The position numbers were made by a program, and so were the translations under genes. Positions 10,461-10,560 of a stretch of DNA of 64,000 nt are shown in pieces. The notes under the pieces were generated by a model. That model was not told the DNA's origin. It did not search any database and saw only the letters and a list, made by a program, of their open reading frames with translations. The stretch lies in the NCBI RefSeq assembly GCF_057098645.1, contig NZ_CM169472.1; one strand, written 5' to 3'. The first letter of the stretch is position 1; every line of letters begins with the position of its first letter.

Positions 10461-10560
10461 GAACAGTGTGCATTTTGGCAATAAATCTGAAACCAACTGT
10501 CATGTCGGTTTTTTAAAGGCCGAAGGTGGTAAACCTTCGGCCTTAGCGACGTTTCCTCAG

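What the first reader, a model, noticed from the sequence alone, without database searches (positions are those of the whole stretch)
10490..10545. Degenerate copy of the sRNA terminator motif plus a strong hairpin downstream of the toxin stop
ccaactgtcatgtcggtttttt (10496-10517) closely resembles the sRNA terminator ccgactgtcatgtcggttttttt (10968-10990) but has a weakened stem. It is followed by the perfect hairpin ggccgaagg-tggtaaa-ccttcggcc. This may be a relic of a second sRNA copy (as in the agrA/agrB duplication) or the terminator set for ybbP and the toxin gene.
Basis: seen in the sequence. Interest (0 to 1): 0.25.

Follow-up and report, generated by a model that had tools for sequence, protein, structure and literature searches.

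The report
Toxin terminator plus duplicated antitoxin-sRNA terminator
The stretch holds the normal terminator hairpin of a DinQ-like toxin gene, and beside it a decaying spare copy of the antitoxin RNA's terminator; the two terminator copies bracket the toxin-antitoxin unit, and rare strains have lost the unit by recombination between them.

Summary
AAACCAACTGTCATGTCGGTTTTTT (10490-10514, T_L) matches the sRNA terminator (10967-10991, T_R) at 24 of 25 bases. A perfect 12-bp hairpin lies at 10516-10544.

The locus is a dinQ-like toxin / AgrB-family sRNA type I toxin-antitoxin module between ybbP and mnmH. It occurs in 1314 of 5426 complete E. coli genomes.

The GC hairpin is the toxin mRNA terminator, homologous to dinQ SL9. 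Nine other family loci tabulated position by position keep the stem through compensatory changes.

T_L copies the sRNA terminator only. Nothing to its left resembles the sRNA body, and none of the other family loci examined has such an element. T_L is old: a 4-7% divergent Escherichia clade has it. It is decaying, with independent stem and T-run mutations in two clades while T_R is unchanged. The core hairpin energy on the plus strand falls from -7.0 to -1.0 kcal/mol.

T_L and T_R are direct repeats 477 bp apart. Five E. coli genomes and one other Escherichia genome carry a single terminator at exactly the predicted recombination junction. Three of these have the T_L-specific A joined to the T_R-specific right flank. 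They are therefore deletion products.

This is ordinary biology of modest interest.

The parts
7930..10344 (+). ybbP (putative ABC transporter permease), the upstream gene convergent with the toxin
   Evidence: ORF; RefSeq annotation of the identical O145 RM9872 sequence
10350..10466 (.). REP/BIME palindromic elements downstream of ybbP; copy number varies between strains
   Evidence: Sub-threshold Rfam matches to two REP-like sRNA models (naRNA4, ES036); inverted repeat I3; extra units in L047 and L012
10473..10489 (.). Spacer X (ttttggcaataaatctg) between REP and T_L; the left edge of the segment missing from 'empty' alleles
   Evidence: Comparison with SFAD3, L008 and L035. No significant similarity to the sRNA body
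10490..10514 (.). T_L: degenerate copy of the antitoxin sRNA terminator, and left member of the 25-bp direct repeat pair
   Evidence: 24/25 identity to 10967-10991. Core hairpin -1.0 kcal/mol on plus and -4.3 on minus. A-variant in 14/14 E. coli-type occupied alleles. Independently mutated ortholog in a divergent clade
10516..10544 (-). Terminator stem-loop of the dinQ-like toxin mRNA (homolog of dinQ SL9), followed on the minus strand by U then A-rich sequence
   Evidence: Stems of 11-14 bp in nine other family loci plus this locus in two strains, with compensatory changes at stem positions 5 and 7-11. The same single hairpin in four more copies. SL9 is named as the dinQ terminator in PMC5066626 and PMC3567139
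10561..10644 (-). dinQ-like type I toxin ORF, 27 aa (MKTFLDKVLIVLKALIALLELIRQFIE); PGAP calls it either as this ORF or as a 51-aa ORF extending to 10716
   Evidence: ORF. NCBIfam toxin_DinQ 38-41 bits against a cutoff of 30. PGAP 'dinQ' annotations
10712..10733 (-). Target site in the toxin 5' UTR, complementary to the 5' end of the sRNA
   Evidence: Direct repeat D2 with 10898-10919, 91% identical. Corresponds to the agrB/dinQ antisense region described in PMC3567139
10870..10898 (+). Sigma-70-like promoter of the sRNA (TTGAAT-17-TATAAT)
   Evidence: 10 of 12 matches. Conserved in the distant relative L019
10906..10994 (+). AgrB-family antitoxin sRNA
   Evidence: Rfam RF02891, 53.6 bits against a gathering score of 40, full-length match
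10967..10991 (.). T_R: the sRNA's own bidirectional terminator, and right member of the direct repeat pair
   Evidence: -17.5 kcal/mol with A/U extensions. CCGAC/GTCGG stem shared with K-12 agrA/agrB, plasmid sRNAs, L032 and L019
10995..11040 (.). Spacer Y between T_R and mnmH; follows the single terminator in the deletion alleles and follows the sRNA in L019
11056..12150 (-). mnmH (selU), the downstream convergent gene

Best explanation
The 56-nt stretch holds two different things.

(1) 10516-10544 is the intrinsic terminator / 3' stem-loop of the minus-strand mRNA of a dinQ-like type I toxin. It is the homolog of dinQ SL9. The transcript most likely ends just past it, around 10510-10515 (inferred).

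(2) 10490-10514 (T_L) is an old duplicate of the terminator of the module's own AgrB-family antitoxin sRNA (T_R, 10967-10991). No second sRNA gene is attached to it now. It is losing its terminator features. I infer that it lies outside the toxin transcript and is not needed to terminate ybbP.

T_L has one demonstrable consequence. T_L and T_R are 25-bp direct repeats that bracket the 477-bp toxin-antitoxin unit. Recombination or replication slippage between them deletes the unit precisely and leaves one chimeric terminator between ybbP and mnmH.

Shown: the homology, the covariation of the hairpin, the decay of T_L, and the existence and chimeric nature of the deletion alleles.

Inferred: where transcripts actually end, and how T_L first arose. 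The leading guess for its origin is a leftover of a tandem module or other local duplication.
For: Family membership:
- AgrB Rfam hit of 53.6 bits against a gathering score of 40.
- NCBIfam toxin_DinQ 38-41 bits against a cutoff of 30.
- PGAP annotates the gene as dinQ.

The hairpin is the toxin terminator:
- K-12 dinQ and eight plasmid loci, plus this locus in two strains, all have a perfect 11-14 bp stem at the same distance from the stop codon.
- All are followed by U then AA.
- Pair types switch at stem positions 5, 7, 8, 9, 10 and 11.
- Four further copies look the same.
- Published work calls this stem-loop the dinQ terminator.
- A natural hairpin variant (L045) is G.U on the toxin strand and A.C on the other.

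T_L is a copy of T_R only:
- 24/25 identity with an identical 6-nt loop, while other family members have other loops.
- No significant similarity further left.
- None of the other family loci examined has a second hairpin beside the toxin terminator.

T_L is old and decaying:
- A clade that is 4-7% divergent (L035, L038, L043) has T_L at the same place as AAACCGACTGTCATGCCGGTTT(T)GTT. This is a different stem mutation plus an interrupted T-run.
- T_R and the GC hairpin are identical in both clades.
- Core hairpin energy is -1.0 kcal/mol (plus strand) and -4.3 (minus strand), against -7.0 and -6.4 for T_R.

Deletion products:
- Five complete E. coli genomes and Escherichia L008 have X, one terminator, then Y, with no module.
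- In L025, L026 and L028 the single copy carries the T_L-specific A joined to the T_R-specific T7+ATATCTG junction.
- The A is found in T_L and never in T_R in 14/14 E. coli-type occupied alleles. The G is the paired state shared with the divergent clade's T_L, with T_R everywhere, and with the sRNA terminators of other family members.
- The flanks of the deletion alleles are closest to module-bearing genomes and are not each other's nearest relatives.
- Other short direct repeats in the module have also produced natural deletions.
Against: No 3'-end data exist for this locus, so I cannot show where the toxin and ybbP transcripts stop.

Both independent stem substitutions in T_L, one in E. coli and one in the divergent clade, keep a G.U pair on the toxin strand and break the plus-strand pair. 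This could mean a structural constraint on the minus strand. The chance of this pattern arising without constraint is about 1 in 4.

The toxin terminator has a very short U-tract (UUU then A-rich). A back-up hairpin downstream would therefore be useful.

The excess divergence of T_L rests on 3 substitutions in 26 nt. By my own Poisson estimate P is about 0.05 against the module core and about 0.14 against the flanks.

Two E. coli single-terminator alleles and L008 carry G. That needs a crossover within the first 5 nt, heteroduplex repair, or an unseen G-type T_L.

The origin of T_L is unresolved.
Confidence: 0.75

Rival explanations
1. T_L is the last remnant of a complete second antitoxin sRNA gene, or of a second tandem toxin-antitoxin module, that once lay between ybbP and the toxin. 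The rest has been erased by deletion or REP insertion. This concerns origin only and is compatible with the present-day picture given above.
For: T_L has the family-typical CCGAC/GTCGG sRNA terminator with the same loop as T_R. Tandem modules exist: pOLA52 carries two dqlB units, with an sRNA terminator upstream of the next toxin hairpin. K-12 has duplicated agrA/agrB.
Against: No significant similarity to the sRNA body or promoter exists left of T_L, in E. coli or in L008. Only 17-18 nt separate T_L from REP sequence in both clades. In pOLA52 the terminator and the next hairpin are about 110 nt apart, whereas here they abut. agrA/agrB lie on the other side of the toxin gene.
Confidence: 0.25
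2. T_L is a working transcription terminator. It would be either a back-up terminator for the toxin mRNA (minus strand) or the terminator of ybbP (plus strand). Together with the GC hairpin it would insulate the two convergent genes.
For: It sits between convergent genes. The consensus scan calls it terminator-like on the minus strand. Both stem mutations keep G.U pairing on the minus strand. On the plus strand it carries a run of 6-7 T. The stem and loop are invariant in 14 E. coli-type alleles.
Against: The plus-strand core hairpin is only -1.0 kcal/mol, and the T-run is broken in the divergent clade. The minus-strand tail is UUUCAGAUUUAUU, which is a poor U-tract. None of the other family loci examined needs a second hairpin. 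Alleles with neither terminator copy are common: roughly 8% of genomes by extrapolation from 6 of 60 sampled rows, plus the K-12-type Rhs arrangement. T_L diverges at least as fast as the flanking genes, while T_R and the GC hairpin do not change.
Confidence: 0.2
3. T_L and T_R are attachment-site-like ends of a small mobile cassette. A 477-bp unit (terminator plus toxin plus sRNA) would pop out as a circle and re-integrate at a single terminator, so that single-terminator alleles are acceptor sites as well as scars.
For: The structure equals 1.05 copies of a 477-bp unit, as expected from Campbell-type integration. Single-terminator alleles exist. In some comparisons the module is much more alike than its flanks: the module core is 99.5% identical against 94.6-96.7% for L010.
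Against: The module is found only at this locus; the only other matches are the dinQ locus and plasmid dqlB copies. There is no recombinase and there are no terminal inverted repeats. The toxin CDS and 3' UTR show polymorphism close to that of the flanks (6 of 98 sites against 7-11%), while the 5' UTR has none (0 of 217). That pattern points to selection rather than a recent sweep. In the divergent clade the module has diverged along with its flanks. The A-type single copies must come from occupied alleles. 25 bp is very short for RecA-driven integration.
Confidence: 0.07

Closest known systems
dinQ-agrA/agrB type I toxin-antitoxin locus of E. coli K-12 (Weel-Sneve 2013, PMC3567139; Kristiansen 2016, PMC5066626)
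   Same: A small hydrophobic toxin of the DinQ family. A divergently transcribed AgrB-family sRNA whose 5' end is complementary to the toxin 5' UTR. A toxin terminator stem-loop (SL9) right after the stop codon and next to the 3' end of a convergent housekeeping gene. An sRNA terminator with a CCGAC/GTCGG stem.
   Different: There is one sRNA gene here, not two. No LexA box was found in the promoter region. The locus is ybbP-mnmH rather than gor-arsR. An extra copy of the sRNA terminator sits beside the toxin terminator, which K-12 lacks.
dql (dinQ-like) genes, dqlA/dqlB, on enterobacterial chromosomes and conjugative plasmids (Kristiansen 2016; PGAP 'DqlB')
   Same: The same module plan and the same covarying terminator hairpin followed by UUUAA. 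The family is widespread: 1712 plasmid records match.
   Different: None of the plasmid or mobile-element copies examined has a T_L-like element. pOLA52 has two whole modules in tandem rather than one module plus a lone terminator.
Repeat-mediated precise deletion leaving a single repeat copy (as in solo LTR formation, or deletion between short direct repeats by RecA or replication slippage)
   Same: Two direct repeats flank a unit. Natural alleles have exactly one chimeric copy and no unit.
   Different: The repeats are only 25 bp and are a transcription terminator rather than element ends. No mobile-element machinery is involved.
Bidirectional intrinsic terminators between convergent genes
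   Same: T_R, and the G-type single copy, is an A-tract / GC stem / T-tract palindrome lying between convergent transcription units.
   Different: T_L has lost the features needed on the plus strand and has only a weak hairpin and tail on the minus strand.

Membership tests
dinQ/dql - AgrB type I toxin-antitoxin family | Small hydrophobic toxin peptide matching the DinQ models | tested here: met
   NCBIfam NF041472 toxin_DinQ scores 38.4 bits (51-aa ORF) and 40.9 bits (27-aa ORF) against a cutoff of 30. The Pfam copy searched here gave no hit, but precomputed PF28061 DinQ hits are listed for near-identical proteins.
dinQ/dql - AgrB type I toxin-antitoxin family | Divergently encoded AgrB-type antisense sRNA | tested here: met
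   Rfam RF02891, 53.6 bits against a gathering score of 40, positions 1-84 of 84, at 10906-10994 on the plus strand.
dinQ/dql - AgrB type I toxin-antitoxin family | The sRNA 5' end is complementary to the toxin 5' UTR | tested here: met
   10898-10919 repeats 10712-10733 on the same strand at 91% identity, so the sRNA is antisense to the minus-strand mRNA there.
dinQ/dql - AgrB type I toxin-antitoxin family | Terminator stem-loop (SL9) directly after the toxin stop codon | tested here: met
   A 12-bp stem at 10516-10544. Stem register, flanking AAGG/CCUU and the U-AA tail are shared with nine other family loci, with compensatory changes.
dinQ/dql - AgrB type I toxin-antitoxin family | Toxicity of the peptide and repression by the sRNA | not testable with these tools
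   Needs expression experiments.
SOS-regulated dinQ proper (the 'damage-inducible' name given by PGAP) | LexA operator in the toxin promoter | tested here: not met
   No CTG-N10-CAG occurs in 10644-10910, and the best match to the 20-nt consensus has 9 mismatches. K-12 dinQ has a box with 5 mismatches.
   No significant similarity between 10345-10489 and the sRNA promoter and body. No second AgrB hit near T_L, even at E = 10.
Intrinsic (Rho-independent) terminator, applied to T_L | A stable GC-rich stem followed by a U-tract on the transcribed strand | tested here: inconclusive
   Plus strand: U6-7 tail but a core stem of only -1.0 kcal/mol. Minus strand: -4.3 kcal/mol with tail UUUCAGAUUUAUU. 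The simple scan flags the minus strand only.
Intrinsic (Rho-independent) terminator, applied to T_L and the GC hairpin | RNA 3' ends map just after the hairpin | not testable with these tools
   No 3'-end data are available for a module-bearing strain.
Transposable element / MITE with target-site duplication | Terminal inverted repeats, several genomic copies, or a transposase | tested here: not met
   The ends of the 568-bp variable segment match at 11 of 40 positions in inverted register, which is chance level. The full-length module is found at only one site per genome; other matches are partial hits to the dinQ locus and to plasmid dqlB copies. No ORF other than the toxin lies in the module.

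The most novel reading that the evidence does not exclude
The duplicated terminator could make this type I toxin-antitoxin unit a reversible cassette. Recombination between T_L and T_R would release a 477-bp circle carrying toxin, antitoxin and one terminator. A single terminator left in the chromosome would then serve as a landing pad for re-acquisition. This would be a recombinase-free way for a toxin-antitoxin module to come and go at a fixed chromosomal site.
Probability: 0.06. Interest if true: 0.6.

Novelty: new member of a known kind. Interest (0 to 1): 0.22.

Why it matters
The result assigns a function to the hairpin: it is the conserved terminator of the dinQ/dql toxin family. It also shows that the look-alike motif is a decaying duplicate and not a hidden second antitoxin.

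The side result is small but clean. It is a natural example of how a chromosomal type I toxin-antitoxin module is lost. Short direct repeats inside and around the module each mark a deletion allele seen in sequenced strains: a 25-bp terminator pair, a 22-bp antisense/target pair and a 10-bp pair. The terminator pair removes toxin and antitoxin together and restores a tidy bidirectional terminator between the neighbouring genes.

The work also flags that PGAP's name 'damage-inducible DinQ' is probably wrong for this copy, because no LexA box was found.

Tried and rejected
- **Chance resemblance.** Rejected: two sites found against zero expected.
- **Second sRNA body left of T_L.** Alignments were no better than shuffles, and Rfam gave no second AgrB hit even at E = 10.
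- **T_L as a target-site duplication of a mobile element.** No inverted termini, no transposase, and a single genomic site.
- **Single-terminator allele as the ancestral empty site.** Rejected for the A-type alleles because they join a T_L-specific base to the T_R-specific junction. The stem is also the family-wide sRNA terminator stem, so the single copy cannot be an unrelated ybbP/mnmH terminator.
- **Recent horizontal sweep as the reason the module is so conserved.** Weakened, because the low diversity is confined to the 5' UTR and sRNA, and because the module tracks its flanks in the divergent clade.
- **RNAalifold on the MAFFT alignment of the hairpins.** The result was distorted by stems of different length. 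I replaced it with a stem-register tabulation.
- **A 70-nt BLAST query for the deletion junction.** It found nothing, probably because the low-complexity filter blocked seeding. An 88-nt query worked.
- **Supplement of Kristiansen 2016.** Not held as text.
- **Outgroup hunting through MnmH clusters.** This gave one distant relative (L019) and a Salmonella locus with other genes beside mnmH.
- **Three further toxin homologs.** They added nothing new.

Full report
**What is there**

The window is identical to E. coli O145 RM9872 across the 721 bases compared, window 10340-11060.

From left to right the region contains the following:
- ybbP on the plus strand, ending at 10344
- REP/BIME palindromes
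- a 17-nt spacer, here called X
- the 25-nt element AAACCAACTGTCATGTCGGTTTTTT at 10490-10514, here called T_L
- a perfect 12-bp GC-rich hairpin at 10516-10544
- a small minus-strand ORF with its stop codon at 10561-10563
- an AgrB-family sRNA on the plus strand at 10906-10994 (Rfam RF02891, 53.6 bits against a gathering score of 40)
- a 46-nt spacer, here called Y
- mnmH on the minus strand

The sRNA ends in AAACCGACTGTCATGTCGGTTTTTT at 10967-10991, here called T_R.

The small ORF encodes MKTFLDKVLIVLKALIALLELIRQFIE. This matches NCBIfam toxin_DinQ above its cutoff, and PGAP names it dinQ.

The sRNA's 5' end repeats 10712-10733 on the same strand, so it is antisense to the toxin 5' UTR.

This is therefore a dinQ-like (dql) type I toxin-antitoxin module. 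The family was defined by Kristiansen et al. 2016. The module is present in 1314 of 5426 complete E. coli genomes.

**Check of the observation**

T_L and T_R are 24/25 identical direct repeats with a start-to-start spacing of 477. They are the only two matches in 64 kb with up to 3 mismatches, against zero expected.

The one difference is G to A at 10495. It breaks the plus-strand stem: the core hairpin is -1.0 kcal/mol against -7.0 for T_R. On the minus strand the change is a G.U wobble, giving -4.3 kcal/mol.

The GC hairpin is real and strong, at -20.2 kcal/mol on the minus strand and -21.6 on the plus strand.

**The GC hairpin is the toxin terminator**

I compared the sequence after the toxin stop codon in K-12 dinQ, in eight plasmid dinQ/dqlB loci, and in this locus in two strains.

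Every locus has the same layout...GGAAACGUAAYUAAGG, then a perfect 11-14 bp stem, then CCUU-U-AA... The stem sequence differs between loci through compensatory changes at stem positions 5, 7, 8, 9, 10 and 11. Four more copies on mobile elements look the same.

The dinQ papers call this stem-loop the dinQ terminator, SL9. It lies a few nucleotides from the gor stop codon.

One metagenomic variant of the hairpin (L045) has a substitution that is G.U on the toxin strand and A.C on the other.

**T_L is a copy of the sRNA terminator and nothing more**

The CCGAC/GTCGG stem flanked by A and T runs is the hallmark of AgrB-type sRNA terminators. It appears in K-12 agrA/agrB, in plasmid sRNAs, in L032 and in L019. 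The loops differ between these sRNAs.

T_L shares the exact loop TGTCAT with T_R. It therefore derives from this module's own terminator.

To the left of T_L there is no significant similarity to the sRNA body or promoter. None of the other family loci examined has any second hairpin next to the toxin terminator.

The agrA/agrB analogy therefore fails. Those are two whole genes in tandem on the other side of the toxin.

**T_L is old and decaying**

A divergent Escherichia clade is represented by metagenome contigs L035, L038 and L043. Their identity to the window is 95-96% in ybbP and 93-94.5% in mnmH.

This clade has the full module with T_L in the same place, but as AAACCGACTGTCATGCCGGTTT(T)GTT. 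The left arm still has G. The right arm has a T-to-C change. The T-run is interrupted.

T_R and the GC hairpin are identical in the two clades.

T_L orthologs thus differ by 3 substitutions in 26 nt. The module core differs by about 3% and the flanks by 4-7%.

All three changes weaken a plus-strand terminator. The two stem changes both stay G.U on the minus strand. That is a caveat, but it would happen by chance about one time in four.

All 14 E. coli-type occupied alleles I read have the A form of T_L and the G form of T_R. These were 6 genome or contig sequences and 8 metagenome contigs. The window is unusual in having 6 rather than 7 T in T_L.

**What the repeat pair does**

The ybbP-mnmH junction exists in several states:
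- **State 1** is the full module.
- **State 2** is X, one terminator, then Y. This is exactly what recombination between T_L and T_R would leave. It is found in Escherichia L008, which is about 7% divergent, and in five complete E. coli genomes.
- **State 3** lacks X through Y altogether.
- **K-12-type strains** have an Rhs island in place of everything between the two stop codons.

Among the State 2 alleles, L025, L026 and L028 carry the T_L-specific A joined to the T_R-specific TTTTTTT-ATATCTG junction. L024, L027 and L008 carry G.

G is the paired base. It is shared by T_R everywhere, by the divergent clade's T_L, and by the sRNA terminators of other family members. The A therefore arose in T_L after the duplication. 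The A-type single copies must be deletion products of occupied alleles.

The flanks of the State 2 alleles are closest to State 1 genomes, at 98.6-98.9% identity. That is closer than one State 2 strain is to another: L025 and L026 are 98.4% identical. The State 2 alleles also sit on two different X haplotypes. The loss has therefore happened several times.

Other short direct repeats in the module have produced natural deletions too:
- a 107-bp loss between gatgagaact and gatgaggact (the 370-bp repeat spacing in L044 and L046 fits the same deletion)
- a 186-bp loss between the sRNA's antisense region and its target

Contig L039 also has a 71-bp loss that starts in the T_L T-run and removes the GC hairpin and the toxin 3' end.

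**Age of the module at this site**

A distant relative, L019, is 83% identical in ybbP and mnmH. It has an orphan sRNA with a different terminator loop, followed by Y, directly after the ybbP stop codon. The sRNA-Y-mnmH arrangement is therefore ancient.

Among six State 1 sequences the counts of segregating sites were:

| Region | Segregating sites |
|---|---|
| Toxin 5' UTR and promoter region | 0 of 217 |
| sRNA | 2 of 134 |
| Toxin CDS and 3' UTR | 6 of 98 |
| Flanking genes | 7-11% |

This pattern fits vertical descent with strong constraint on the regulatory RNAs. It does not fit a recent sweep of a mobile cassette.

**Rival readings**

- A working terminator role for T_L cannot be excluded without 3'-end data. 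The evidence against it is the weak energies, the poor minus-strand tail, the faster divergence, the absence from other family members, and the many genomes that lack it.
- T_L may have begun as the end of a second sRNA or of a tandem module. pOLA52 has tandem modules. No trace of such a body remains.
- A cassette that excises and re-integrates is the most novel reading. I give it about 6%.

**Verdict**

The hairpin is a known kind of element, the dinQ-family toxin terminator. The look-alike motif is a decaying duplicate of the antitoxin's terminator. Its visible effect is to allow precise loss of the module. Interest is low to modest.

Noticed in passing
window 10617-10733; L002 1277-1290; L044, L046: A 107-bp deletion between the 10-nt repeats gatgagaact (10617-10626) and gatgaggact (10724-10733). 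It removes the toxin start codon, Shine-Dalgarno sequence and part of the 5' UTR. The sRNA is left intact. Seen in ECONIH1; other genomes and metagenome contigs appear to carry the same deletion, judged from 83% coverage or a 370-bp repeat spacing only.
   Followed up: partly
window 10712-10919; L048 1740-1775: A 186-bp deletion between the 22-nt sRNA antisense region and its target in the toxin 5' UTR. It fuses the two and removes the region between them, where both promoters should lie. Sequence read in PE164; E105 and F2_81 have the same shortened span.
   Followed up: partly
L039 (metagenome contig), equivalent to window 10513-10583: A 71-bp deletion joins the T_L T-run directly to the toxin coding sequence. 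It removes the GC hairpin and the toxin 3' end.
   Followed up: no
L003 3533-4626 (E2348/69), equivalent to about window 10864-10870: An IS481-family insertion sits at or just upstream of the -35 box of the antitoxin sRNA promoter in EPEC E2348/69, while the toxin gene is intact. Whether the sRNA is still made there is unknown.
   Followed up: no
window 10644-10910: No LexA box (CTG-N10-CAG) was found between the toxin start codon and the sRNA gene, unlike K-12 dinQ. PGAP's name 'damage-inducible toxin DinQ' is probably misleading for this paralog.
   Followed up: partly
window 10561-10716: PGAP is inconsistent. The same gene is called as a 51-aa ORF in RM9872 and E2348/69 and as a 27-aa ORF in JCH8249 and others. 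By family comparison, the 27-aa ORF with its upstream GGGAG is the likely product.
   Followed up: no
window 10644-10860: The toxin 5' UTR and promoter region has 0 segregating sites in 217 nt among six sequences whose flanking genes differ at 7-11% of sites. This is unusually strong conservation for non-coding DNA.
   Followed up: partly
L019 1282-1405: In a distant relative (83% nucleotide identity in ybbP and mnmH), an orphan AgrB-family sRNA starts right after the ybbP stop codon. The stop codon TGA lies inside the sRNA's -35 box, and there is no toxin gene.
   Followed up: partly
L017 (pOLA52) 661-1668: This plasmid carries two dqlB modules in tandem. The second has a degenerate terminator hairpin.
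   Followed up: no
L045 (metagenome contig), equivalent to window 10519: A variant of the toxin terminator hairpin has G to A on the plus strand. This is a G.U pair on the toxin strand but A.C on the ybbP strand.
   Followed up: no
L047 1470-1690; L012 1080-1170; window 10350-10466: The number of REP/BIME units downstream of ybbP varies between strains. One strain has about 200 extra bases, and there is an extra unit in an empty-site strain.
   Followed up: no
L009 3537-3556; L041: The same 20-mer, CCRACTGTCATGTCGGTTTT, occurs in two unrelated contexts. One is a terminator after a tRNA gene in an AT-rich Enterobacterales MAG. The other is a chance site in a metagenome contig.
   Followed up: no
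L029 1231-1660 and 8417-8533 (K-12): In K-12 the Rhs island (rhsD to ylbG) begins immediately after the ybbP stop codon and ends immediately after the mnmH stop codon. No trace of REP, module or terminators is left.
   Followed up: no
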